Source: Candidatus Thorarchaeota archaeon
Lineage (GTDB): Archaea > Asgardarchaeota > Thorarchaeia > Thorarchaeales > Thorarchaeaceae
Assembly (NCBI GenBank): GCA_003345555.1
Contig: PRDJ01000031.1
Span: forward strand, 1-15,555
Reading direction: 5' to 3'
Length of the DNA: 15,555 nucleotides
Numbering within the stretch: the stretch's first letter is position 1; each line of letters starts with the position of its first letter. Below, one piece after another: positions 1 to 11,799 of the stretch. The notes under the pieces are model-generated. The model saw nothing but the letters and a program-made list of their open reading frames with translations, searched no databases and was not told the origin of the DNA. Made by a program: the position numbers and the translations under genes.

Positions 1-790
1 ACCCTCCTCTGGCGAGAGCATCTGGAATTGCACCTGCAAGACCGGCGAAGGAGCCCACGGTTTTCGCGTAAGGGTACGAATCGTCAGTGACTCTGCCTGC
101 CAATGTGGTGCCGAAGTCAAGAGCCATGACAGGGTTCCGGAAGTCGATGTCTGAACCTTTGACGGCGCCTTTGATTCCTGCTGTGACAAGCTCTCCTTCC
201 ATCTCGTTCGCAACAACCTCTGCACTAGAGGGAGGAAGTGAGCTAGCGACTGCTCCATCAAAATAGACCTTCTTGAGCCAACTGAAGTCTCTGACATCTT
301 CCGGCAGATTCTCCGGGGAAATTGAAGCCGCCATCTTTCGCGGTGGAACTCCTGCAGCAATGCAACCGTCAGCGAGCGCTTTCACCATCTCGCCGACCTC
401 CACGGGCTTTGAGAAACCAGCCGTCACCCCGGTAGATCTTACCACGAAGTGAAGGTCTCTCTCCATGTCAAGATGAGCATCATGTAGGACAGATAGGAGA
501 ATGTCTGAAACGAGTTCCGAGACTGATTTTCGCGTTAGTTCCACACCTGTAATCGTTCTGCCGAAGATGTCCTCGCCATCCTTGGGGGATCTCACGTCCC
601 TTGTGAAGCGAACCTGTTTCGCTATCTCGAAGATTTCAGCTGTGCGGAGATTGGTGCTTACTAGGATGCACTTTGTCGTTGTGTTGCCGAGTTCCACGGA
701 AGCCACCGTGTAAAAAGGACCCGTCCTCAGAGATCCTACCCCTATTGTTCGGGGTCTTATGACCGTAGCACGGTGTGACGTTCCTAACAC
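1..790 (-). CDS. Methanogenesis marker protein 14 (DUF2114 family; ASKHA/actin-like ATPase fold), 3' end truncated by the window edge
   Basis: Not in the ORF track; translated by hand. Open from GTG at 790 (6 nt after the mtrH stop, preceded by GGGGT) to the edge, 263 codons: VLGTSHRATVIRPRTIGVGSLRTGPFYTVASVELGNTTTKCILVSTNL...LHFVVRSTGVTAGF...ALADGCIAAGVPPRKM...FDGAVA...VVANEMEGELVTAGIKG...DFRNPVMALDFGTTLAGR...GLAGAIPDALARG. These blocks match the marker-14 family as I recall it. ELGNTTTK and LDFGTT resemble ASKHA phosphate-1 and phosphate-2 loops. Confidence 0.85.
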   Translation of the reverse strand, partial: MLGTSHRATVIRPRTIGVGSLRTGPFYTVASVELGNTTTKCILVSTNLRTAEIFEIAKQVRFTRDVRSPKDGEDIFGRTITGVELTRKSVSELVSDILLSVLHDAHLDMERDLHFVVRSTGVTAGFSKPVEVGEMVKALADGCIAAGVPPRKMAASISPENLPEDVRDFSWLKKVYFDGAVASSLPPSSAEVVANEMEGELVTAGIKGAVKGSDIDFRNPVMALDFGTTLAGRVTDDSYPYAKTVGSFAGLAGAIPDALARGG

Positions 791-796
791 ACCCCA

Positions 797-1732
797 TCAT
801 AACAACTTGCGGAATGGATGGTTCTCGGAAGGCTGGACACCAAACTCAACGCTTGATGACTCTGCGGCGAAAATATCGGCCATCGCCACAACGGGAAAGA
901 CTGTTCTTGCATTGCTGATTGGCCCATAGAGAATGAAGTTGGCGCCCATCATCTGCACTATCAGGGCAGAAGCCACATCACATGCACGATACGCATCAGG
1001 ATTGGTCTTCTTGTACTTCCGAAGCCAAGACCATGAACTGGGTGCGTTGTGAACCCCAGACCCAGTGGGTTGGCCGTAGAGAGTCTTGGCCACGAATATG
1101 AAGGATGCCGAGGAGCCAGCACCGGCACCCATGGCAGTCGTTGCCGTATCAATGAGAGGTTTTGTGATTCCCACTTCCTCGCCCATTTTCAGCAAGCCCT
1201 TGTCGAGTCCGGGAACTCCATCTTCAAGCACAGCTCGCCTGCCAGCAATCGAGGAGTCGTGAGGATTGAAAGCCAATATCACTGCACAATCATGATGAAT
1301 ATCCTTCAGAGATGCAAGCTCGTCCTTTGTGATGGAGACACTGATCGAATTGTAGATGGCCCTGTCTAGGAGACCGACCTCCTGAGCATGCCTCAAACCC
1401 GCAATCCGCACCTCAGGGCTGGTCGAATCGATAAGAAATGGCGCGTCTGTGACCTCAGCAACGAAATCAAGGTACTTTGTGACTGCCTTCTCAGATTCGG
1501 AAAACACTTGGACAAGAGCAGGATTGCCTGTGGTGTCTGACATCTCATCTTGAACTCGGATTAGCTCCGTCGCGGCCCTCTTGTCAAAGACGCCTTTCCG
1601 AGCATCTTGGACTACGTCGTGCCCACCGTAGAAAATGGTACCAGCAAGAACGGTTGGCATCTCTCCGGGCACGCCTCCGATTCTAATCCCTCCAATGGTA
1701 TGTACAATCTGCTCCTTCTCAAATGCGAACAT
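797..1732 (-). CDS. mtrH: Tetrahydromethanopterin S-methyltransferase subunit H homolog (paralog 1, canonical-looking)
   Basis: 311 aa. N-terminus MFAFEKEQ..IGG..GE.PTVLAGTIFYGGH; motifs FLIDST, IYNSI, LIDTA, GSGVHNAPSSW, NFILYGPI and a C-terminal HPF, all typical of the MtrH/MtxH/MtgA pterin-binding TIM barrel. Confidence 0.93.
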   Translation of the reverse strand: MFAFEKEQIVHTIGGIRIGGVPGEMPTVLAGTIFYGGHDVVQDARKGVFDKRAATELIRVQDEMSDTTGNPALVQVFSESEKAVTKYLDFVAEVTDAPFLIDSTSPEVRIAGLRHAQEVGLLDRAIYNSISVSITKDELASLKDIHHDCAVILAFNPHDSSIAGRRAVLEDGVPGLDKGLLKMGEEVGITKPLIDTATTAMGAGAGSSASFIFVAKTLYGQPTGSGVHNAPSSWSWLRKYKKTNPDAYRACDVASALIVQMMGANFILYGPISNARTVFPVVAMADIFAAESSSVEFGVQPSENHPFRKLL

Positions 1733-1735
1733 ATC

Positions 1736-2431
1736 TCACAGCTCCTTTCCGACAAGTATTGTCCCTGTCTCTGTCCTCTGAACAACGACCGCTATCGTAG
1801 AGGGGTGAGTGGTTACCACTGCGTAGAGGTCTAGCTTCGAGACCAATGAGGAAAACGGATCTACAGAGAGACCATATTCAGGCAGCAGCGCAATAGCGGA
1901 ACCTAATCCTCTCGGGGCTGCCCTTCCGCGTTTAGCCTTGAACTCGACCCACAATGCTTCGCCTCCAAATGGGCCGGGATTCTTTGAGGTCAGTTCGCGA
2001 GCGACCCGAGCAATATCGTCGGGGTTCGTGACATCTATCATGTCTATGAGTTCTACTTGCATCCTGAATCGCTCAATCGCTTCTGTTGGCAGGTTCTCAA
2101 CATAAGGGATGGCTCCTTCGGCTTCGACTATCTTCCGGGTTTCCTTGTCAACGCCCTTCTGATGAAGACATCGTACCGATGAGCCGGTCTTGTGACCAGG
2201 AACCTCTGGTCCTGCCAAAACGAGGTATCTGATGCAGGGATTGGATACTATGTTAACAATCATTCGTTCTATTCCGATGTTCTCAGTCTTGCAGGTGCCG
2301 ATTATGGCGTAGTCTGAATCAACATCTATCTTCTTTCCAAGGGTGCATATTGCGATGCACGAACCAGGATTCTTAACTTCGAAGTCGCCAGGAATCGGCG
2401 GCCATTCCCGCTTCTCAGCACTCGTAACCAT
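1736..2431 (-). CDS. mtrA: MtrA/MtxA-like cobamide methyl-carrier protein, soluble (no C-terminal membrane anchor), with a ~65 aa C-terminal extension
   Basis: 231 aa. WPPIPGDF, G.CKTENIGIE, NIVSNPCIRYLVLAG.EV.GH.TG (His80 matches the cobamide axial-ligand His of MtrA), GAIPYVENL. RBS GGAGG at 2443-2439 overlaps the upstream stop. No long hydrophobic segment at the C-terminus. Confidence 0.92.
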   Translation of the reverse strand: MVTSAEKREWPPIPGDFEVKNPGSCIAICTLGKKIDVDSDYAIIGTCKTENIGIERMIVNIVSNPCIRYLVLAGPEVPGHKTGSSVRCLHQKGVDKETRKIVEAEGAIPYVENLPTEAIERFRMQVELIDMIDVTNPDDIARVARELTSKNPGPFGGEALWVEFKAKRGRAAPRGLGSAIALLPEYGLSVDPFSSLVSKLDLYAVVTTHPSTIAVVVQRTETGTILVGKEL

Positions 2432-2442
2432 AGCAGAACCTC

Positions 2443-3360
2443 CTACTCGAACGACGGCGGCTCGAAAATGGGATGACTTAGTCCCAATGCCTGCTGCGCT
2501 TCAGCGATAGCTGCAGCCATTGCATTTGCTATCAGCGCTGTCGCGGTGAATACTTGCTTGGTCCTTGCCATCGATCCGTACATTATGCAGTCAGTGGCGA
2601 ACAACTGGGCAGCAACAGTCGAAGCTACAATCGCCGAGGTCTGGGTGATCTCGTCATCAAACCCAGCCTGCTTTATGAATTTCCAAGCAGAGGGGGCATT
2701 GTGAGGTCCCAAGCATGTCGGCAGCCCTAATTCCGACTTGATAGCAAGCACGGTTCTGTATTCCAGTCCGTACCCTGCGCCCACCGGCATTGTGGCGGGG
2801 TCTACAACCATCTTCTCGATGCCGATCGCCTTGGCCTCGTCAATCATTGACCGAATCGTCTCCATCCGGTCAGGCAGACTCATCGCCTTGGGTGACCAAC
2901 CAAGAACCACAGCCATCTTCAGAGAACTGTTTCGAAGCAACTGCTTCTCATCATCCTTCATGGACAGATTGATTGAATTGTATATGGCCCTCTTGCTCAA
3001 GCCGGTCTCGTGGCAGTATTCTATGGCCTTCTTTCGCGCATCACCACTTGTTGATTCGAACATAAACGGACCATCGAAGTTCTCACCGAGCCACGACAAG
3101 TGATTCTCCATTGCCTCAGGCGTCCGACCAAAGGCTTGAATGATAAGCGGGTGGCCTGTCTTCTCAACCATCATCTTGGCTGTATCAATCCACTGCTTGG
3201 TCATTTCCTTGTCAAACGTGCCTTCCTTCGCGCTCTTGACGATAGGCTGCGTAGTAAAGAAGAGCCCTCCAATCAACACGGTGGGGTTCTGTCCGGGTTG
3301 GCCGCCAACCGTCACGCCGCCGAAATCAAAAGCCTGCTGCTCCTTCTTGAAAACGAACAT
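2443..3360 (-). CDS. mtrH: MtrH-family methyl-pterin:corrinoid methyltransferase (paralog 2, divergent)
   Basis: The track ORF starts at 3432 inside metF. The likely start is ATG 3360 (MFVFKKEQQ..., matching paralog 1), preceded by TGAGGT overlapping the metF stop; 305 aa. Motifs GGQPGQNPTVLIG, FEST, IYNSI, VVDPAT, GPHNAPSAW, IMYGS, HPIF. Confidence 0.88.
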   Translation of the reverse strand: MFVFKKEQQAFDFGGVTVGGQPGQNPTVLIGGLFFTTQPIVKSAKEGTFDKEMTKQWIDTAKMMVEKTGHPLIIQAFGRTPEAMENHLSWLGENFDGPFMFESTSGDARKKAIEYCHETGLSKRAIYNSINLSMKDDEKQLLRNSSLKMAVVLGWSPKAMSLPDRMETIRSMIDEAKAIGIEKMVVDPATMPVGAGYGLEYRTVLAIKSELGLPTCLGPHNAPSAWKFIKQAGFDDEITQTSAIVASTVAAQLFATDCIMYGSMARTKQVFTATALIANAMAAAIAEAQQALGLSHPIFEPPSFE

Positions 3361-3371
3361 CGTTCTCAACC

Positions 3372-4385
3372 TCACTTCGGTCTGGGGTATAACCCCGAAG
3401 CCTTCACTAGCTCCGGGATGCTCTCTTCCCATCCGATGGCCATGATATGAATGCCATTGATTCCACGAATCATCTTCACTCGGTTGATTGTCTCCAAAGC
3501 GACTGCAATACCCTCAGCACGGACCGCCTCTTTCTTCTCTTCGCCTTTCATTCCTGCGCCAGCAGACTCCAGACGATTAACTATCTCGTCGGAAATCCTA
3601 ATGCCGGGGATTCTCTCATTCATGAAGCGAGCCATCTTCGGTCCTTTCAAGGGGATTACACCTGCCAGTACCTTGACGCCCAATGGCTCAATCTGCTCCA
3701 TGTACTCTTCGAGTCGGGCAGTATCATAAATCGCCTGAGTCTGAAAGAACTGAGCCCCTGCATCACGTTTCTTTTCTACACGCCAGACTTGGAGCTCAAG
3801 CGGGTCAGCATTTGGATTGAATGTCGCACCGAGATGGAAAAGCGGTATGCCCTCAAGCTTCTCCCCGGCCAAGTCCTTCCCCGACATCAGATGACTGGCG
3901 AGCTGTAGGGCTTGGATGGAGTCCAGATCATACACCATCTTTGCCTGAGGATGCGATCCTAGGAGAGTGTGATCGCCCGTAACGAACAGGATGTTGCGAA
4001 TCCCTAGTGCGTATGCACCATAAAGCTCGCTCTCGAAGAGGATGCGATTCCTGTCTCTGGAAGACATCTGCATGACTGGCTCGGCGCCAGCCTGAATGAC
4101 AAAGTGAGCACATGCCATACTGCTCATAGTGGGAATACCGCGGACGTTGTCAGTGATGTTGATTGCGTCACAGTAATCCTTGACGAGACGTGTTCGTTCT
4201 CTTACTAGGTCATCATCAGCGCCATGCGGAGGTCCGACTTCTCCTGTGACAGTGAACTTGCCACTTCGAAGCATGCGCCTGAGCTTGGTTTCTGGTGATT
4301 GCACGCTGTTCTTCAATCTGGCGTCGAAAGACCCCGTCTGAAGACTGACACATATCTCCTTTGGTTGAGCGATACAGGAGTACAT
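3372..4385 (-). CDS. metF: 5,10-methylenetetrahydrofolate reductase, MetF subunit (MetVF type)
   Basis: Motifs TGEVGPP, AINITDN, SRDRN, TGDH, FFQTQ, LAGVIPL, GIHIM. GGAGG lies 5 nt upstream of ATG 4385, which supports that start. GTG 4304 (VQSPETKLRRML) is an alternative closer to the usual family N-terminus. Confidence 0.92.
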   Translation of the reverse strand: MYSCIAQPKEICVSLQTGSFDARLKNSVQSPETKLRRMLRSGKFTVTGEVGPPHGADDDLVRERTRLVKDYCDAINITDNVRGIPTMSSMACAHFVIQAGAEPVMQMSSRDRNRILFESELYGAYALGIRNILFVTGDHTLLGSHPQAKMVYDLDSIQALQLASHLMSGKDLAGEKLEGIPLFHLGATFNPNADPLELQVWRVEKKRDAGAQFFQTQAIYDTARLEEYMEQIEPLGVKVLAGVIPLKGPKMARFMNERIPGIRISDEIVNRLESAGAGMKGEEKKEAVRAEGIAVALETINRVKMIRGINGIHIMAIGWEESIPELVKASGLYPRPK

Positions 4386-4433: not shown

Positions 4434-5090
4434 CTAGGCTTCCTCATGGACTACCGAGTGCGGGCCCTGAGACAAGCTCCAGTCCTTTATCTCCCAGATT
4501 GACTTCAGTTTGTCGAGCTTTCCTAGCTTCTTTAGTCGATCATAAATAAGCTGCCAAGCGCAGTCTGTCTCCGGATCTCTCTCGCATTTGCCATTCATCG
4601 AGCCACCACATGGACCATTTAGGATACCTTTCGCACAGCGGGCGAGCGGACAAATGCCACCGGTCAAGTCCAAAATGCATTCACCACACATGATACAGCG
4701 CTCTTGGTGAACAAACCGTTGTGGCATAGTCCCGAGGAACTTCGAATCAGTGGCTGGAAAGGACTCCTTCTCTGGTATCAGTTCTGTGACGTTTTGAGTC
4801 GCTACACCGCATGCCTGTATCAAAAAAGCTTCGGCCTCATCGAGTATCGCCCTATTGTTCTCCATCTCCTGTTTGACAGCATTGACATCGCATATTCCGC
4901 CTTGAACGAATATCTTGCCCAGGACCTGCTTATTGTGCTGTCGCAGAAAATCCTCCATGTCTTCGAGTTGAAGTATGCCGCCCACATCACACATCTGAGC
5001 ACAACCTGAATCACCAAAGAGGACTATCTTCTCGTATCCCTCCAACATCCGGAGAATCTCATCTGGTGATTTCAATTCCATGGCAATCAT
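4434..5090 (-). CDS. metV: MetV, Cys-rich small subunit of methylene-tetrahydrofolate reductase
   Basis: Cys cluster ERCIMCGEC..TGGICPLARCAKGILNGPCGG..GKCE..DCAWQLIYDRL, directly upstream of metF. Start chosen at ATG 5090 (MIAMELKSPDEI) because it fits the family N-terminus. The track's ATG 5129 abuts a TATA-like box. Confidence 0.88.
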   Translation of the reverse strand: MIAMELKSPDEILRMLEGYEKIVLFGDSGCAQMCDVGGILQLEDMEDFLRQHNKQVLGKIFVQGGICDVNAVKQEMENNRAILDEAEAFLIQACGVATQNVTELIPEKESFPATDSKFLGTMPQRFVHQERCIMCGECILDLTGGICPLARCAKGILNGPCGGSMNGKCERDPETDCAWQLIYDRLKKLGKLDKLKSIWEIKDWSLSQGPHSVVHEEA

Positions 5091-5130
5091 AGAGAGGACG
5101 TCACTCGTACTAAGTCGTCGATACTGCATC

Positions 5131-6580: not shown

Positions 6581-8653
6581 TTGAGCCAGTTTGAGATTCG
6601 TGCTAAGGATGGACTTGCTCGTCTTGGCAGGTTCGAGACCAATCACGGAACAGTCACAACGCCCCTCCTGATGCCGGTCGTCCATCCGGGGAAATCAGAG
6701 GTAACACCAAGTCAGCTGGTATCCGAGTTCAAGTTTCAGATGGTCATAACTAACGCATACATCATCAAATCCACAGACCGCTTCAGAGACGCGGCACTTG
6801 ACAAGGGAGTGCATTCACTTCTCAACTTCAGCGGGCCCATCATGACAGACTCCGGGACGTTCCAGATGTACACTCATGGTCTTCCGGAGGGAGAGATTGA
6901 TCCTATGGACATCGTGAGCTTCCAGCGGCAAATTGGTTCGGATGTCGGTACAATCCTTGACACGTTTTCGGACCCCTATGCTACATGGGCTAGAGTTGAG
7001 CAGGATGTACAAGTGTCAACGGAGAGAGCTAGAATATCCATCCCCGTAAAGGGAGACATGCTTCTTGCAGGCACTGTCCAAGGAGGCATATACCCAGATT
7101 TGCGAATCAGAGCAGCTGACGAGATGGCGCCTCTGAATATCGACGTTCATCCTATTGGCGGTCTCGTGCCTCTCATGGAGCAGTATCGCTATGCTGACAT
7201 TGTGAGGGCAACCCTTGCGGCTAAGTCGCACCTTCCGCCTCAACGTCCAGTCCACCTCTTCGGATGCGGTCACCCGATGTTCTTTGCACAGGCGGTTCTC
7301 ATGGGCTGCGACCTCTTCGACTCGGCATCTTATGCCAAATTTGCGGAATCGGGCCGACTGTTGTTTCCCACCGGCACTGTTCACCTGAGCGACCTCCGAG
7401 AGTTGCCATGTGAATGCCCTGCGTGCAACAGCACAACAATCGATGATTTGCAACGCCTAGATAAAGCGGCGCAGTCGCTCATTCTTACGAAGCACAACCT
7501 GTATGTCAGCGCAGCCGAGATCAGGAGAGTGCGACAGGCGATTGCCGACGGCAATCTGTTAGAGCTTGCTGCGTTGCGCGCCCGGAGCCACCCAGCACTC
7601 TATGAGGCCCTGGATATTTTTCTTGAACAAATAGGAAACATAGAATCGTCGGCACCTAGTGCAAACGCAAAGTCGGTTTTCTACACGGGTCCCGAGACAG
7701 CAAGACATCCGCTACTCAGAACCTTCCAGTATAGAATCCTCGAGCGATATCCATTCAGAAGAACGAGGATGCTCGTGATGGTGCCTGACATGGGTGCCAA
7801 ACCATTCTCAGAAACCAATCAGGCAATCGAGAACGAAGTGAAGATGCGTGACCCTGCCGAGATGCTCTTGTTCTATGTCACACCTATAGGAGTGGTCCCG
7901 TGGGAACTGGAGCATGTGTACCCCGCCCAACAAACCATCTTTCCTGCGAGTGTGGATTCTGAGTGCCTGACTGCAGCTGGAGAAAGCCTGACTAGACTGC
8001 TGAGTACAATGGAATTCGATGACTGCATGTGGGTGTCGAGAGAGACACCGACCAATGTGCTGTCGGCGGCGACCGGACTGAGTGATAGAGCGACCAAGGT
8101 GTCAGGGGTTTCTGAGCTATCGCAAATCCTGCCGGCGGCAAGCCACCCGCAGCTCTGGCAGAAGAGAGTGATAGCGGGTGTCTGTGCCTTTCAGTGGGAT
8201 GTAAGAGACATGGACAGCTTCGGGCTCAACGAATTAGGAATAACCCTCTCTTCGTCAACAGGCAAGATACGGCATATCACGCGAAATGGCAAGGTGCTCT
8301 TCACGTTGGTTCCAACCAATGGACTACTGACCCCGACATACGACGGCGGCAGGCTTCTTCTGAAGTCGGGCCTGAAGGACGATTACAAGGTTGTAGTTGA
8401 CGATGATGCCGCTCCGTTTGTAGCGGATGGCAAATCCGTCATGACCAAGTTCGTCAAATGGGCCGGCCCGCATCTGATGGCGGGTGAGGAAGTGCTCGTT
8501 GTTGATTCCAAAGGCGAGTTCTTAGGATCCGGAAAGGCCGTTCTAAATGGCAGAGAAATGATGGCATTTAGGCGGGGTGTCGCTGTCATCATGCGGCACT
8601 CGAAGAAACAGCCGCCGGTTGACTATAAAGAGGATGACCAGGAATCTTTCTGA
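6581..8653 (+). CDS. tgtA: Archaeosine tRNA-guanine(15) transglycosylase with C-terminal PUA domain
   Basis: 690 aa, TTG start with GAGGA upstream. Motifs DGLARLG, TPLLMPV, MTDSGTFQ, HPIGG.VPLME.Y, HLFG.GHPMFFA.AV.MGCDLFDSASY, Zn site CECPAC...H, and a PUA-like C-terminus (GKSVMTKFV..GEEVLVVD..G.AVLNG.EM..F.RGVAV). Confidence 0.95.
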   Translation: MSQFEIRAKDGLARLGRFETNHGTVTTPLLMPVVHPGKSEVTPSQLVSEFKFQMVITNAYIIKSTDRFRDAALDKGVHSLLNFSGPIMTDSGTFQMYTHGLPEGEIDPMDIVSFQRQIGSDVGTILDTFSDPYATWARVEQDVQVSTERARISIPVKGDMLLAGTVQGGIYPDLRIRAADEMAPLNIDVHPIGGLVPLMEQYRYADIVRATLAAKSHLPPQRPVHLFGCGHPMFFAQAVLMGCDLFDSASYAKFAESGRLLFPTGTVHLSDLRELPCECPACNSTTIDDLQRLDKAAQSLILTKHNLYVSAAEIRRVRQAIADGNLLELAALRARSHPALYEALDIFLEQIGNIESSAPSANAKSVFYTGPETARHPLLRTFQYRILERYPFRRTRMLVMVPDMGAKPFSETNQAIENEVKMRDPAEMLLFYVTPIGVVPWELEHVYPAQQTIFPASVDSECLTAAGESLTRLLSTMEFDDCMWVSRETPTNVLSAATGLSDRATKVSGVSELSQILPAASHPQLWQKRVIAGVCAFQWDVRDMDSFGLNELGITLSSSTGKIRHITRNGKVLFTLVPTNGLLTPTYDGGRLLLKSGLKDDYKVVVDDDAAPFVADGKSVMTKFVKWAGPHLMAGEEVLVVDSKGEFLGSGKAVLNGREMMAFRRGVAVIMRHSKKQPPVDYKEDDQESF

Positions 8654-9746
8654 GTGCGTCCACACCTCCCAGTGGCAGCACCATCACGTTTGCTCTGGGT
8701 GCGAACAAACGGATCTTGTCACCCTTACTTGCCGGGGCATCTGGAGGCAGCAAGGAAACTGCATCGATGTCACCTACCTTGAAGTGGATTTCCAAGTTGC
8801 TACCCAGATAGACGACCTCGTTCGCGACGCCCATAATCTCGTTATCTGTTGGATCAGTGCGTTCAGTCTGCAAGTCCTCAGGCCGGACGGCGCATCTTAC
8901 ACGTTCTCCAACCTGAAATGGATAACCCTCCAAGGGACTTCTTCCAGAGACTACTTGTCCGTCTGGCAAACGGGCTTTCATATACTCTCCAAGAGATGTG
9001 ATTTCTGCGTCGATAAATGTGCACTTACCGATGAAGTCTGCAACAAAGATAGTCTGTGGTCTGGCGTAGATTTCTTTCGGCGAGGCATATTGCTGAATGT
9101 ATCCCTTGTCCATGACTGCCACCATGTCAGATATGCTAAGCGCCTCGTTCTGATCATGAGTGACATAGACTGTTGTGATACTTAGCTCCTTCTGAATTCG
9201 CATTATTTCCTCTCGCATCTCGTGTCTGAGCTTGGCATCAAGGTTTGAGAGCGGCTCATCGAGAAGCAAGACATCTGGCTCTATGACTAGAGCTCGGGCG
9301 AGTGCTACCCTCTGCTGCTGGCCTCCACTTAGCTGATGAGGAGTACGATTGGCTAGGCCTTGCATGTGGACAAGGTCAATTACCTTCTCGACCCGGTTTG
9401 CTATTGCGGCAGGCGTGTACTTCATACCATTCATTCGCTTCATTTTTAGGCCGTAAGATATGTTATCAAACACGGTCATGTGAGGCCACAGTGCGTAGTT
9501 CTGGAAGCACATACCTGTCTTCCTCTTGTTAGGCGGAATCTCTGTCACATCTCTGTCATCGAAGAAGATTCGTCCTCTATCAGGAATGTAGAATCCGGCA
9601 ATTAGCCTGAGTAGTGTGGTCTTGCCGCAGCCCGAGGGCCCGAGCAACGTAGTCAGTTTGCCCTCCTCCAGATCCATGTTGACATCGTCTGTGGCTATGA
9701 CATCGCCGAATGTTTTTCTCAAGTTGACTAAGTGAATGGTAACCAT
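8589..9746 (-). CDS. ABC importer ATP-binding subunit (FbpC/AfuC/PotA-like) with C-terminal regulatory (TOBE-like) domain
   Basis: Walker A GPSGCGKT, signature LSGGQQQR, Walker B LLLDE, H-loop THDQ. Start ATG 9746 preferred over 9755 because GGTGA lies just upstream. The 3' end overlaps tgtA. Confidence 0.94.
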   Translation of the reverse strand: MVTIHLVNLRKTFGDVIATDDVNMDLEEGKLTTLLGPSGCGKTTLLRLIAGFYIPDRGRIFFDDRDVTEIPPNKRKTGMCFQNYALWPHMTVFDNISYGLKMKRMNGMKYTPAAIANRVEKVIDLVHMQGLANRTPHQLSGGQQQRVALARALVIEPDVLLLDEPLSNLDAKLRHEMREEIMRIQKELSITTVYVTHDQNEALSISDMVAVMDKGYIQQYASPKEIYARPQTIFVADFIGKCTFIDAEITSLGEYMKARLPDGQVVSGRSPLEGYPFQVGERVRCAVRPEDLQTERTDPTDNEIMGVANEVVYLGSNLEIHFKVGDIDAVSLLPPDAPASKGDKIRLFAPRANVMVLPLGGVDALRKIPGHPLYSQPAAVSSSAA

Positions 9747-9756
9747 GACTATCACC

Positions 9757-11799
9757 CTATATACCGGTCATTGCCGAAGCTCTGGTCTTCAAAATCCTGT
9801 TCGTCACCGTTATCACAACCATCTGCATGCTCATCATCAGTACGCCAAGGGCCGCTGCGGGACCAATCCCATATATCGGGGGAAGGCCGGCTCGTGTCAC
9901 ATTTATCCAATAGGTAAGAGGAGCCTGGTAGTAGTTTGCACCGCCCAGCAACAAGCTTGTACTGACCTCACTCACGCAGTAAACGAATGATAGAAGGGCG
10001 CCTGCGAGAACACTCAGGCCAATCAGAGGGACCACAATTTTCGCAAAAGTGGTATTACGACCTGCCCCGACATTGAGAGACGCCTCTTCCATCACCACAG
10101 GGGTCTGCTGTAGCCCCGCGTATGCAGCTCTTACCGTGAAAGGAAACTTCCTCACTAAGTATGACATCACGATCAGGAACATTGGTGCGTCCCTTGGAAA
10201 GAAAGGAGTGTTGTAGAAGAGTGTGAAATAGCCTGCGGCAATCACAGTGCCGGGAATCGCGATGGGCGAGGTGACAAGCAGGTCAAGTGCAGTGCGCCCG
10301 GGAATCTTCCGTCTCGATATTATGTATGCAGCGGAGACTCCCAAGAGGACAATGCCGATGGTGGCTATCCCTGCATAGCTGAGTGTTCTTGTAAGGGCAC
10401 CCTGAATGTCTGAGTTCATCAGTATAGCGAAATTATCCAATGTCAACGGAGGGAATAATGCACTAGAGCGATACTCGGCAAATGAGAGTAGAATAACACT
10501 CATCTGAGGAATCAGAGCAAAGAACAGCATGGACACTACCAGCAGATAGAGGAGGACTGTTGCTCTCGCACTAAGTCTTCTTGTCCGGGGATTCCATTGA
10601 CCCCCCTTGCTGCCTGATGCGTAGCTCCTCAGAGCAGCATACTTACGGATTGCCAAGAAACCCATGAGAGCGAATGCTAGGAGAATCATTCCGATGGCGG
10701 GGCCAATAGGGCTTATCGAGCCTGATTCAGATGTGATGTTGATGAATACCTGATATGCGAGACAATGCTGGGCCTGCAAATCCTCGCTGAATACAATGGG
10801 AGTTCCCAGGTCTTCGATGCTCAAGATGAATGCCAGTATCGCTCCGGCTTGGATGCCAGGCATCGCGAGTGGAAGCGTAACCGTCCTGAACAACGTGAAG
10901 CCCTTCGCCCCAAGGTTCTCAGCCTGTTCTTCAAGGGATGGGTCTATCGATACAAAAGAGGAATACGCGTTCAAGTATACCAAAGAGAAAAGGGACAAAC
11001 CCTGCACCAGTATTATCGCAGCCAGACCGTGAAACTCAATCCGTGTCCAAGTTAAGCCGAACCATGAAAAGAACGCAGACGCAAGGTTATTCAGAAACCC
11101 GTTCCCGCCCAAGAACCACTTTATCCCAATGGCGCCAACAAATGGTGTTGATAGCATTGGGAACAGAAGCACTGTCCGAAGTATCGTCTTTCCTCGGAAC
11201 TCATATCGGGCAATCAGGTAAGCGAAGAAAGTGCCAAGAGCAACGGCAATACACGTGACAATAGCGGCCACATATAGGGAATTCAAGATGACGCCCATCT
11301 CGATCCCCCATATCTCCACGATTCCACTCGGGCTCGGTCGGATCACCCGAAAGTCAGCCGGAGACCATTGTGGCAGAAAGACCGGGTTTCTCAAAAGAAG
11401 CAGGATTACGAATTCGCCTTCTTGAATCGTGAAGGACCCAACGACGACCTTAAGGAGAGGCGCAATCAGAAACACTCCGAAGACGATTATGATGGCCAGA
11501 AGCTGAATCGAGGATAGTGAGTCCATCTCTCTCCTGAATGTGTGCACACCGGAAATGAACTTGTCAGAAAGAATCCTAGTGTTCTTGGCGGGGCTGCGCA
11601 GAAAGCCAGCTAGACGTACGACGCCCCGCCAAGTCCACTTAACGAATCGAATGATGCGCTGTGCAATGCCTTTGAACAGCCCTATGACTAGGTTGCCCAA
11701 GGATCGGAGGACGGCGACAAAGAGGTTCTCTTGTCTTACCATTTCAGTACCGGGAGATTCCGATTCTGTGGTTTCTGAGACTTCCGCCACATTGTCCAC
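9757..11799 (-). CDS. ABC importer permease with two fused MetI-like halves (FbpB/AfuB/ThiP type)
   Basis: Many hydrophobic helices and two EAA loops (LEEQAENLGA.GFTLFRTVTLPL and MEEASLNVGAGRNTTFAKIVVPL). The start (GTG 11799) is uncertain. Confidence 0.9.
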   Translation of the reverse strand: MDNVAEVSETTESESPGTEMVRQENLFVAVLRSLGNLVIGLFKGIAQRIIRFVKWTWRGVVRLAGFLRSPAKNTRILSDKFISGVHTFRREMDSLSSIQLLAIIIVFGVFLIAPLLKVVVGSFTIQEGEFVILLLLRNPVFLPQWSPADFRVIRPSPSGIVEIWGIEMGVILNSLYVAAIVTCIAVALGTFFAYLIARYEFRGKTILRTVLLFPMLSTPFVGAIGIKWFLGGNGFLNNLASAFFSWFGLTWTRIEFHGLAAIILVQGLSLFSLVYLNAYSSFVSIDPSLEEQAENLGAKGFTLFRTVTLPLAMPGIQAGAILAFILSIEDLGTPIVFSEDLQAQHCLAYQVFINITSESGSISPIGPAIGMILLAFALMGFLAIRKYAALRSYASGSKGGQWNPRTRRLSARATVLLYLLVVSMLFFALIPQMSVILLSFAEYRSSALFPPLTLDNFAILMNSDIQGALTRTLSYAGIATIGIVLLGVSAAYIISRRKIPGRTALDLLVTSPIAIPGTVIAAGYFTLFYNTPFFPRDAPMFLIVMSYLVRKFPFTVRAAYAGLQQTPVVMEEASLNVGAGRNTTFAKIVVPLIGLSVLAGALLSFVYCVSEVSTSLLLGGANYYQAPLTYWINVTRAGLPPIYGIGPAAALGVLMMSMQMVVITVTNRILKTRASAMTGI

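What the first reader, a model, noticed from the sequence alone, without database searches (positions are those of the whole stretch)
797..3360. Two strongly diverged MtrH paralogs flank mtrA and differ at pterin-pocket motifs
Seen, paralog 1 versus paralog 2: GTIFYGGH vs GGLFFTTQ, IDST vs FEST (Asp to Glu), GSGVHN vs CLGPHN, LYGPI vs MYGSM. Both keep IYNSI, the strand Asp (LIDTA/VVDPA), HNAPS.W and a C-terminal HP motif, so neither looks like a decaying copy. Established: in pterin-binding TIM barrels, Asp/Asn residues at these strand ends hold the pterin ring, and MtrH-type proteins dimerise. Inference: the paralogs have different pterin specificity, or form an H1/H2 heterodimer that MtrA swings between.
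Basis: partly seen in the sequence, partly recalled or inferred. Interest (0 to 1): 0.65.

Follow-up and report, generated by a model that had tools for sequence, protein, structure and literature searches.

The report
Two MtrH enzymes around soluble MtrA
A non-methanogenic Thorarchaeota (Asgard archaeon) genome keeps a soluble remnant of the methanogen Mtr methyltransferase in which the vitamin-B12 carrier MtrA sits between an ordinary MtrH and a second, lineage-specific MtrH with a rebuilt substrate pocket. This is probably a two-enzyme methyl relay whose substrates are still unknown.

Summary
Two MtrH-family genes, H1 (797-1732) and H2 (2443-3360), both on the minus strand, flank a soluble mtrA. 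They are 33% identical, and every cited motif is present. One correction: the C-terminal 'HP' is not conserved in H2.

The genome is a Thorarchaeia MAG in which no MtrE or McrA was found. The order metF-H2-mtrA-H1-marker14 holds in about 40 species and in 16/16 genera of the family.

- **H1** groups with canonical methanogen MtrH.
- **H2** is a class-restricted clade on a long stem. Its next relative is 36% identical, and it has the lowest dN/dS in the operon (0.019).
- **H2 pocket.** It keeps three of the four pterin-binding residues. It has fixed Asp→Glu, Thr32→Gly and Gly→Cys at near-invariant family positions, and it has lost the basic patch proposed to bind the cofactor tail.
- **MtrA.** It keeps its cobalt-ligand His. 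Its membrane anchor is replaced by a linker and a β-rich tail that resembles the MtrH-docking strand of MtrB.
- **MtrB contacts.** H2 alone keeps the partner Arg; H1 alone keeps the acidic residue 5.

Best reading: two active barrels with different substrates share one tethered corrinoid arm, possibly as an H1/H2 heterodimer. An H4F/H4MPT split in particular is unproven. The H1/MtrA/marker-14 remnant is published; I found no paper describing H2. This is a new variant of a known kind.

The parts
4434..5129 (-). metV-like gene (231 aa; Pfam DUF5981 'methylene-tetrahydrofolate reductase C-terminal', Cys-rich)
   Evidence: Pfam 118.2 bits. It lies next to metF in about half of the Thorarchaeia loci. 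dN/dS 0.028.
3372..4385 (-). metF-like methylene-tetrahydropterin reductase (PF02219 MTHFR). It ends 11 nt before the H2 start.
   Evidence: Pfam 117 bits; NCBIfam best match is the MTHFR half of PRK08645. It sits directly upstream of H2 in all but one (L043) of the Thorarchaeia loci that reach that far upstream.
2443..3360 (-). mtrH2 (H2), 305 aa: Thorarchaeia-restricted, very conserved MtrH paralog with a remodelled pocket
   Evidence: TIGR01114 scores 238 bits, below the 271.4 cut-off. Orthologues are 57-96% identical. The next relative in 1.84 billion representatives is 36% identical.
3265..3267 (-). H2 Gly32 codon (Thr32 in H1 and in M. mazei MtrH, a pocket-lining residue)
   Evidence: G in 42/42 H2 and T in 35/36 H1. 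Other family members: S60, T25, G5. Codon checked. Role of the residue from PMC12774963.
3055..3057 (-). H2 Glu102 codon, replacing the pterin-binding Asp (Asp103 of M. mazei MtrH)
   Evidence: E in 42/42 H2 and D in 35/36 H1. Of 97 other family representatives, 87 have D and 1 has E. Codon checked.
2755..2757 (-). H2 Arg202 codon, equivalent to M. mazei MtrH Arg211, which salt-bridges MtrB Glu9
   Evidence: R in 42/42 H2; H1 has Ala/Ser/Gly here (A19, S15, G2); canonical MtrH and MtxH have R or K. The contact is from PMC12774963.
2713..2715 (-). H2 Cys216 codon at a position that is Gly in almost the whole family
   Evidence: C in 41/42 H2, G in 36/36 H1, G in 95/97 other representatives.
2650..2673 (-). 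H2 residues 230-237 (K-Q-A-G-F-D-D-E): the basic patch proposed to bind the cofactor tail is lost
   Evidence: H1 keeps R/K238, K/R241 and K242, equivalent to M. mazei R239, K242, K243. H2 has K/R230, then G233, L/F234 and acidic residues 235-237.
1736..2431 (-). mtrA, soluble corrinoid carrier (231 aa): MtrA core 7-168, low-confidence basic linker about 160-178, β-rich tail 177-231, no membrane helix
   Evidence: Pfam MtrA 186 bits. PDB MtrA hits at E 4e-46. AF2 mean pLDDT 84.9; the tail is all β at pLDDT 66-79. It is the only MtrA gene in the genome.
2192..2194 (-). MtrA His80 codon. It aligns with chain residue His84 of the solved MtrA (5laa); that this His is the lower cobalt ligand is from my own knowledge of MtrA.
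   Evidence: Alignment to 5laa/8q3v. G79-H80 is invariant in 32 sequences. Codon checked.
1823..1894 (-). MtrA tail residues 180-203 (motif I-A-L-L-P-E-Y-G-x-S-x-D-P-x-S-S-L-V), resembling MtrB N-terminal residues 4-27, the strand on which the MtrH dimer docks
   Evidence: hhalign of 40 tails against 55 MtrB sequences: P 1.1e-4, probability 56%, 24 columns. hmmsearch alone is not significant, E about 0.35. P184-E185 is 40/40. E185 aligns with MtrB Glu9.
797..1732 (-). mtrH1 (H1), 311 aa, canonical-type MtrH
   Evidence: TIGR01114 scores 403 bits against a 271.4 cut-off. It groups with Methanosphaera, Methanosarcina and Methanoregula MtrH. All four pterin residues and the basic patch are kept.
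2..790 (-). N-terminal 263 aa of methanogenesis marker 14 (DUF2114, 'm26'), cut by the contig end; an ASKHA-fold ATPase
   Evidence: Pfam 382 bits, TIGR03285 381 bits. It follows H1 in the Thorarchaeia loci that extend past H1. The AF2 model of the full-length form (pLDDT 78.5) matches Kae1/TsaD, sugar kinases and RACo.

Best explanation
The finding is the core of a soluble, Mtr-derived corrinoid methyl-transfer system that is conserved across Thorarchaeia: (metV)-metF-mtrH2-mtrA-mtrH1-marker14.

**Components**
- MtrA carries the corrinoid. Its cobalt-ligand His is kept. Its membrane anchor is replaced by a flexible linker and a small β domain that resembles the MtrB strand on which MtrH dimers dock.
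- H1 is an ordinary MtrH.
- H2 is a neofunctionalised paralog. It keeps the catalytic Asn, two other pterin-binding residues and corrinoid-contact residues. The rest of its pocket is reshaped and the tail-binding basic patch is gone.

**Proposed mechanism (inferred)**
The two barrels catalyse the two half-reactions of one relay. One barrel loads a methyl group from a methyl-pterin onto Co(I)-MtrA. The other unloads it onto a different acceptor, most likely a second pterin-type carrier. The tethered MtrA domain moves between the two active sites, plausibly on an H1/H2 heterodimer. MetF(V) makes or consumes one of the methyl-pterins. Marker 14, an ASKHA ATPase, is a candidate for keeping the corrinoid active.

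**Shown:** gene content, conservation, selection, residue changes and phylogeny.
**Inferred:** catalysis by both barrels, different substrates, tethering and heterodimer formation.
For: **Context**
- The genes are tightly packed, with 3-11 nt gaps and Shine-Dalgarno sites.
- The order metF-H2-mtrA-H1-m14 holds in about 40 Thorarchaeia species.
- H2 with H1 about 700 nt away occurs in 16/16 genera of the family.
- The genome has one MtrA. No MtrE, McrA or MtxX was found. So the only methyltransferases encoded with the carrier are H1 and H2.

**Both barrels look active**
- N128, D195/D187 and H-N 228-229/220-221 are invariant in both clades.
- H2 keeps Met-Pro at the corrinoid-contact loop and has Trp where MtrH has Phe156.
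- dN/dS is 0.019 for H2, the lowest in the operon, and 0.033 for H1.

**H2 is different**
- It forms a single 50%-identity cluster among 1.84 billion representatives. The next hit is 36% identical.
- Its clade has 100/100 support on a stem of 1.02.
- D102E, T32G and G216C are fixed at positions that are D 87/97, S/T 85/97 and G 95/97 in the rest of the family.
- The basic patch is lost.

**Tether**
- The tail is modelled as β strands after a low-confidence linker.
- Tail residues 180-203 align with MtrB 4-27, hhalign P 1.1e-4.
- Tail Glu185 (40/40) aligns with MtrB Glu9. Its published partner, MtrH Arg211, survives only in H2 (R202, 42/42). The acidic residue 5 survives only in H1.

**Marker 14**
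- It has an ASKHA fold, and RACo is among the structural matches.
Against: - There is no biochemical data. Everything about activity and substrates is inference.
- The identity of the second substrate is open. RFAP synthase was found in 1/61 genomes, Ftr not in the own genus, and Mtd and a bona fide Mer not in the own genome. These argue against a full H4MPT pool, while Mch in 59/61 argues for some H4MPT-like cofactor.
- CODH/ACS (CdhC) is present in only 24/61 genomes. Feeding acetyl-CoA synthase therefore cannot be the general role.
- The genome has two URO-D-family genes that could serve as a separate MT2. H1 and H2 therefore need not be the donor and acceptor pair.
- The MtrB-like match is short. 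By hmmsearch alone it is not significant at genome scale, E about 0.35.
- I could not model complexes, so the heterodimer is untested.
- The published MtrA-MtrH salt bridges (MtrH Glu79 and Glu136) are not clearly conserved with either paralog.
Confidence: 0.5

Rival explanations
1. Structural heterodimer with one net reaction. H1/H2 is an obligate heterodimer that replaces the MtrH homodimer. Only one barrel methylates MtrA from a single methyl-pterin. The other has become a docking or regulatory subunit. The methyl group leaves MtrA through a third enzyme encoded elsewhere, such as a URO-D-type MT2, a MetE-like enzyme, or CODH/ACS where present.
For: - In the M. mazei complex only the membrane-proximal MtrH of each dimer is thought to serve MtrA.
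- The MtrB-contact residues are split between H1 and H2.
- The MtrA tail is MtrB-like.
- URO-D-family genes are present in the genome.
Against: - H2 keeps the catalytic Asn, two pterin ligands and the corrinoid-contact residues invariant in 42/42 sequences.
- It has the lowest dN/dS in the operon. That is more than a scaffold would need.
- The pocket changes are fixed substitutions at substrate-contact positions, not decay.
Confidence: 0.22
2. H2 is a thiol-directed MT2 that functionally replaces MtrE. Glu102, Cys216 and His220 would form a metal site that activates coenzyme M, homocysteine or another thiol to accept the methyl group from CH3-Co-MtrA. Together with H1 this would give a soluble methyl-pterin:thiol methyltransferase.
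For: - H2 gained conserved Glu102 and Cys216 next to the conserved His220 in the pocket. It also gained conserved His70, His87 and Cys116 elsewhere.
- metF adjacency is reminiscent of methionine-synthase logic.
- No MtrE was found in the genome.
Against: - N128, D187, N221 and Q75, all pterin-site residues, stay invariant or nearly so in H2. That would be unexpected after a switch to a thiol.
- No MtrH-family thiol methyltransferase is known (my own knowledge).
- Only one Cys lies at the pocket. C258 is variable, 33/42.
- I had no 3D coordinates to test whether these residues are close to each other.
Confidence: 0.08
3. Independent isoenzymes. H1 and H2 do the same reaction on the same cofactor, for example under different conditions. 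Alternatively, H2 serves an unrelated pathway and the gene order is historical.
For: - Both are MtrH-family barrels with most catalytic residues.
- A lineage-specific duplication is not rejected (AU p 0.13).
Against: - Strict H2-A-H1 synteny holds in all 16 genera of the family that were sampled.
- There is only one carrier gene.
- The long stem is followed by very slow evolution.
- The fixed changes fall at near-invariant pocket positions.

None of these is expected for redundant isoenzymes.
Confidence: 0.1

Closest known systems
Mtr complex (MtrA-H) of methanogens: MtrH, MtrA and the MtrB N-terminal strand (PDB 9QTP/9QTS, 8Q3V)
   Same: - H1 is a canonical MtrH with all pterin-site residues and the basic patch.
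- MtrA keeps its core fold and the His ligand.
- Marker 14 (m26) is linked to the system as it is in methanogens.
- The MtrA tail resembles the MtrB docking strand.

   Different: - No membrane subunits were found (MtrE not found) and no Mcr.
- MtrA has no membrane helix.
- A second, divergent MtrH paralog is present, and metF is adjacent.
- Sodium pumping is therefore not possible.
MtxXAH of Methanosarcinales (soluble MtrA/MtrH paralogs with MtxX/Mmp4)
   Same: - A soluble MtrA homologue is directly followed by an MtrH-clade gene.
- H1 is about 50% identical to ANME-2/Methanosarcinales MtxH.
- The MtxA C-terminus also carries an MtrB-like strand (ILMDTTSGVV).

   Different: - MtxX was not found in the genome.
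- Thorarchaeal MtrA scores below the MtxA model cut-off, 161 against 279 bits.
- Mtx has one MtrH-type gene, not two, and no metF or marker 14 in the locus examined.
MtgA (methylcorrinoid:tetrahydrofolate methyltransferase, D. hafniense, PDB 6SJ8/6SJN/6SK4) and related Mto/Mtg systems
   Same: - The TIM-barrel family is the same.
- The four pterin ligands align.
- The genome's third copy, H3, belongs to this side of the family and sits next to RACo and a B12-binding protein.

   Different: - H1 and H2 score far below the MtgA equivalog cut-off, 217 and 164 against 550 bits.
- They use MtrA rather than a MtaC-type B12-binding protein.
- MtgA has Asp and Ser where H2 has Glu102 and Gly32.
Three-component corrinoid methyltransferase systems (MT1 - corrinoid protein - MT2 - activase), for example MtaBCA+RamA, or CmuAB with metF/folD
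   Same: - The logic of donor enzyme, carrier, acceptor enzyme and ATPase activator is the same.
- metF is adjacent, as in chloromethane (cmu) clusters (from my own knowledge, not tested here).
   Different: - Here both methyltransferases would be MtrH-family pterin barrels.
- The carrier is MtrA-type.
- The putative activator is DUF2114, which lacks the N-terminal 2Fe-2S ferredoxin domain that the genome's own RACo gene carries.

Membership tests
MtrH family (Pfam PF02007) | Full-length match above the Pfam gathering score | tested here: met
   H1 390.8 bits and H2 241.6 bits against a cut-off of 22.8.
MtrH family (Pfam PF02007) | Four pterin-binding residues shared by MtrH and MtgA (M. mazei Asp103, Asn129, Asp196, Asn230) | tested here: inconclusive
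   H1 has all four. H2 has Asn, Asp and Asn conserved, but Asp103 is replaced by Glu in 42/42 sequences.
Bona fide MtrH (NCBIfam TIGR01114 equivalog) | Score above the curated equivalog cut-off (271.4 bits) | tested here: inconclusive
   H1 scores 403.2, which meets it. H2 scores 238.3, which does not.
Bona fide MtrH (NCBIfam TIGR01114 equivalog) | Part of a membrane Mtr complex (mtrEDCBAFGH) in an Mcr-containing organism | tested here: not met
   No MtrE or McrA match in the 93%-complete genome. There is one MtrA, and it lacks a membrane helix.
MtxXAH system | MtxX (Mmp4, TIGR03270) present with MtxA and MtxH | tested here: not met
   No TIGR03270 match in the genome. MtrA scores 161 bits against the 279 cut-off of the MtxA model PRK14053. 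The positive example is L051.
MtgA (NF047990 equivalog) | Score above the 550-bit cut-off | tested here: not met
   H1 217.5 and H2 164.5 bits.
MtrA corrinoid protein (PF04208) | MtrA core domain with the cobalt-ligand His | tested here: met
   186 bits. His80 aligns with His84 of the solved MtrA and is invariant in 32 sequences.
Three-component corrinoid methyltransferase system (MT1-CP-MT2) | Two methyltransferases with different substrates acting on one corrinoid protein | not testable with these tools
   Gene content and conserved catalytic residues fit. Activities and substrates need assays.

The most novel reading that the evidence does not exclude
H1 and H2 form a heterodimer whose two opposite-facing active sites bind two different C1 carriers: an H4MPT-like pterin at H1 and tetrahydrofolate or another pterin at H2. 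MtrA, tied to the dimer interface by its MtrB-like tail, swings between them. This would be a pterin-to-pterin methyl shuttle built from a dismantled Mtr complex. It would link archaeal-type and bacterial-type C1 pools in Asgard archaea.
Probability: 0.25. Interest if true: 0.85.

Novelty: new variant of a known kind. Interest (0 to 1): 0.62.

Why it matters
The role of the MtrA/MtrH 'remnants' in non-methanogenic archaea is an open question. The papers I read call it unclear.

This work gives that question a defined object. The module is conserved in all 16 genera of the family that were sampled. It has one corrinoid carrier, two different MtrH barrels, a reductase and an ATPase. The sequence changes are specific enough to test directly: D102E, T32G, G216C, loss of the basic patch, the R202/E185 pair, and the MtrB-like tail.

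If the relay reading holds, it would show how an energy-conserving membrane complex was cut down to a soluble methyl shuttle. It would also clarify C1 metabolism in the archaeal lineage closest to eukaryotes.

Tried and rejected
- **Recent duplication with identical pockets.** Rejected: 33% identity, a stem of about 1.0, and fixed pocket differences.
- **Origin of H2.** A duplication inside the Thorarchaeia lineage followed by fast divergence is not rejected (AU p 0.13). The origin stays open.
- **Relaxed selection or decay of H2.** Rejected: dN/dS 0.019 and a constant 305 aa length.
- **H2 as MtgA, MtoA or MtxH.** Rejected by the tree and by model scores. The MtgA/Mto-like copy in this genome is H3 on contig 42.
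- **Role tied to CODH/ACS.** Rejected as a general explanation: CdhC in only 5 of 17 genera.
- **Sequence search of the MtrA tail against PDB and Pfam.** Nothing found.
- **hmmsearch of the tail profile.** MtrB was the best hit among the methanogen-locus ORFs, but E was about 0.35 at genome scale. Only the profile-profile comparison gave support.
- **Marker 14 against PDB by sequence.** Nothing found.
- **Marker 14 in the ESM Atlas.** This gave only a weak EutA lead, score 0.83.
- **One paper search was wasted.** 'MMP14' retrieved matrix metalloproteinase papers.
- **The C-terminal match of H2 to 8z9u_B.** It runs into what looks like a Strep-tag (WSHPQFEK) and means nothing.
- **The 115-row careful tree.** It did not finish in time. 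I used a 55-row subset instead.
- **Limits of the tools.** Complexes could not be modelled and model coordinates are not returned. Distances between pocket residues and interface predictions were therefore not possible.
Full report
**What is in the window**

The window is a whole 15.6-kb contig of a 2.28-Mb genome that is 93% complete. On the minus strand, tightly packed with 3-11 nt gaps and Shine-Dalgarno sites before H2, mtrA and H1, lie:
- a metV-like gene (4434-5129, DUF5981)
- a metF-like MTHFR (3372-4385)
- an MtrH-family gene, H2 (2443-3360)
- mtrA (1736-2431)
- a second MtrH-family gene, H1 (797-1732)
- the first 263 codons of methanogenesis marker 14/DUF2114 (2-790, cut by the contig end)

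The names attached to homologues place the genome in Thorarchaeota/Thorarchaeia, an Asgard lineage.

**The observation**

H1 and H2 are 33% identical, E 2e-57.

I extracted 36 H1 and 42 H2 orthologues from about 40 Thorarchaeia species and aligned them. The differences are clade-fixed, not peculiar to this genome:
- T32→G
- Y35→F
- N70→H
- E79→R
- D102→E (42/42)
- F155→W
- an 8-residue deletion
- T196→P
- G224-S225→C-L
- YGPI→YGSM
- R/K238, K241, K242 → K230, G233, L/F234 followed by acidic residues

Shared and invariant in both clades are N128, D195/D187 and H-N at 228-229/220-221; Q75 is the majority residue in both clades. The 'HP' C-terminal motif is conserved only in H1.

**Where the changes fall**

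The M. mazei Mtr structure paper (PMC12774963) names these residues:
- Asp103, Asn129, Asp196 and Asn230 as the pterin ligands shared with MtgA
- Thr32, Gln75 and His229 as pocket lining
- Arg239, Lys242 and Lys243 as a basic patch proposed to hold the anionic cofactor tail

H1 keeps all of these. H2 keeps Asn, Asp, His-Asn and Gln. It replaces Asp103 by Glu and Thr32 by Gly, and it loses two of the three basic residues.

Among 97 other family representatives, the Asp column is D in 87 and E in 1. The column where H2 has Cys216 is G in 95.

A 2026 preprint names MtrH Phe156, Met200 and Pro201 as corrinoid contacts. H2 has Trp, Met and Pro there. H1 has Phe, Thr and Ala. Both barrels therefore look able to bind the corrinoid domain, and both keep the catalytic Asn.

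**Distribution and selection**

- The order metF-H2-mtrA-H1-m14 is kept in essentially every Thorarchaeia locus with enough flank. metV is present in about half. One locus, L043, lacks metF.
- In a survey of 61 genomes of the class, an H2 orthologue (57-96% identity) with H1 about 700 nt away occurs in 16/16 genera of the family. It is absent from the single genome of the sister family.
- Against 1.84 billion 50%-identity representatives, H2 collapses into one full-length cluster (71%). The next hit is a Methanosphaera MtrH at 36%.
- Against the closest relative, dN/dS is 0.019 for H2, 0.033 for H1, 0.118 for MtrA and 0.038 for MetF.

H2 is the most constrained gene of the operon.

**Phylogeny**

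- In a 55-row maximum-likelihood tree, H2 orthologues form a 100/100 clade on a stem of 1.02 substitutions per site.
- That clade sits inside the group holding canonical methanogen MtrH, MtxH and the H1 clade. It sits away from a 100/100 clade holding Bathyarchaeia and bacterial MtrH-like proteins and this genome's third copy, H3.
- H1 groups with canonical MtrH and scores above the TIGR01114 equivalog cut-off. H2 scores below it.
- Forcing H1 and H2 into one clade costs 14.3 log-likelihood units, AU p = 0.13. A duplication in the Thorarchaeia stem followed by a burst of change is therefore not excluded.
- Within-clade branches of H2 are shorter than those of H1.

This long-stem, tight-crown pattern fits neofunctionalisation.

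**Genome context**

| Feature | Result |
|---|---|
| MtrA | one copy in the genome |
| MtrE | not found in the genome |
| McrA | not found in the genome |
| MtxX | not found in the genome |
| Fhs and FolD | present, adjacent |
| Mch | present |
| Mtd | not found in the genome |
| Mer | below cut-off |
| Ftr | not found in the genus |
| CdhD / CdhC | not found in the genome / genus |

Across the class, CdhC is in 24/61 genomes, RFAP synthase in 1/61 and Mch in 59/61. The module therefore cannot exist just to feed acetyl-CoA synthase. Whether these organisms hold an H4MPT-type cofactor beside folate is unresolved.

**MtrA and its tail**

- MtrA keeps its core and the His ligand (H80).
- After residue 160 the AF2 model has a low-confidence basic linker, then six short β strands at pLDDT 66-79. 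There is no membrane helix.
- A profile of 40 tails against 55 MtrB sequences aligns tail 180-203 with MtrB 4-27. hhalign gives P 1.1e-4 and probability 56%.
- hmmsearch alone is not significant, E about 0.35 in 30,485 ORFs.
- In M. mazei this MtrB strand is where the MtrH dimer docks, through Arg5(B)-Asp5(H) and Glu9(B)-Arg211(H).
- The tail's invariant Glu185 aligns with MtrB Glu9.
- The Arg211 equivalent is kept in H2 (R202, 42/42) but is Ala/Ser in H1. The acidic residue 5 is kept in H1 (31/36 sequences) but is Lys in H2 (42/42). Canonical MtrH carries both.

This split is what one would expect if an asymmetric strand binds an H1/H2 heterodimer. It is indirect evidence only.

**Marker 14**

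- The full-length form has ASKHA phosphate-binding-like motifs.
- An AF2 model at pLDDT 78.5 matches Kae1/TsaD, sugar kinases and the corrinoid activator RACo at E 1e-5 to 1e-3.
- Its link to Mtr, including in Thorarchaeia, is already published as 'm26'.
- A role in keeping MtrA's cobalt active is plausible but untested.

**Interpretation**

One carrier gene is flanked by two strongly constrained barrels. Both keep catalytic and corrinoid-contact residues, and they differ at substrate-contact positions. A corrinoid carrier needs a loading enzyme and an unloading enzyme.

The simplest reading is that H1 and H2 are those two enzymes, with different substrates, and that the tethered MtrA domain moves between them. 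metF beside H2 suggests that one substrate is the methyl-pterin MetF makes or uses. I put this at about 0.5. The specific H4MPT-like/H4F shuttle on a heterodimer I put at about 0.25.

The rivals are:
- a heterodimer with only one productive site and a third enzyme as acceptor (0.22)
- redundant isoenzymes (0.10)
- a thiol-directed H2 (0.08)

**Comparison with the literature**

Adam et al. 2022 (PMC9635834) report canonical MtrAH and m26 in Thorarchaeia and call them remnants with an unclear methyltransferase role. Other Asgard papers discuss MtrAH or MtrA-H fusions.

In the library I could search, I found no description of any of the following:
- the second paralog
- its class-wide conservation
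- the pocket changes
- the metF linkage
- the MtrB-like tail

The earlier notes of this scan contain the shuttle idea and the tail idea for this same stretch. I tested the tail idea here.

**Verdict**

This is a new variant of a known kind of system, worth biochemical follow-up.

Noticed in passing
G000 contig C42:26545-31400 (locus L005:9528-14405): The third MtrH-family gene, H3, is followed by a RACo-type corrinoid activator (2Fe-2S plus ASKHA), a B12-binding corrinoid protein and a 437-aa protein with no Pfam match. This looks like an Mto/Mtg-type methyl-substrate system. H3 groups with Bathyarchaeia and bacterial MtrH-like proteins.
   Followed up: partly
Thorarchaeia class survey (61 genomes): Mch is nearly universal (59/61). 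RFAP synthase, the committed step of methanopterin synthesis, was found in only 1/61. Ftr was not found in the own genus, and Mtd and Mer were not found in the own genome. Which cofactor Mch and canonical MtrH use here is unexplained.
   Followed up: partly
L051:2853-3446 (MtxA of a Methanosarcinales MAG): The soluble MtxA C-terminus (…ILMDTTSGVVFV) also resembles the MtrB docking strand. A tethering tail may therefore be general to soluble MtrA homologues.
   Followed up: no
window 6581-8653 (+) and L005:3262-6315: The window holds a 690-aa archaeosine tRNA-guanine transglycosylase (TgtA) with C2 and PUA domains. Elsewhere in the genome an ArcS-like protein sits next to a radical-SAM gene.
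   Followed up: no
window 9757-11799 (-): A 680-aa ABC permease with two BPD_transp_1 domains, apparently a fused double permease. It lies upstream of a PotA/PhnT-like ATPase at 8589-9755.
   Followed up: no
L013 (closest relative, 96% H2 identity): metF, hflX and marker 14 each appear split into two or three frames in this assembly, while H2, mtrA and H1 are intact. Assembly errors are likely, but I did not check.
   Followed up: no
L043 (complete Thorarchaeota chromosome CP070761): This is the only locus where no metF was found between hflX and H2. The H2-mtrA-H1-m14 block is otherwise intact.
   Followed up: no
L008:10084-12425: Downstream of marker 14 in a relative lie an F420-0:gamma-glutamyl ligase (CofE) gene and a LarC-type nickel-insertion gene.
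   Followed up: no
L038 (record labelled Hermodarchaeota): Its H1 and H2 are nearly identical to those of a Thorarchaeota MAG (L035), so the label may be a binning or naming issue.
   Followed up: no
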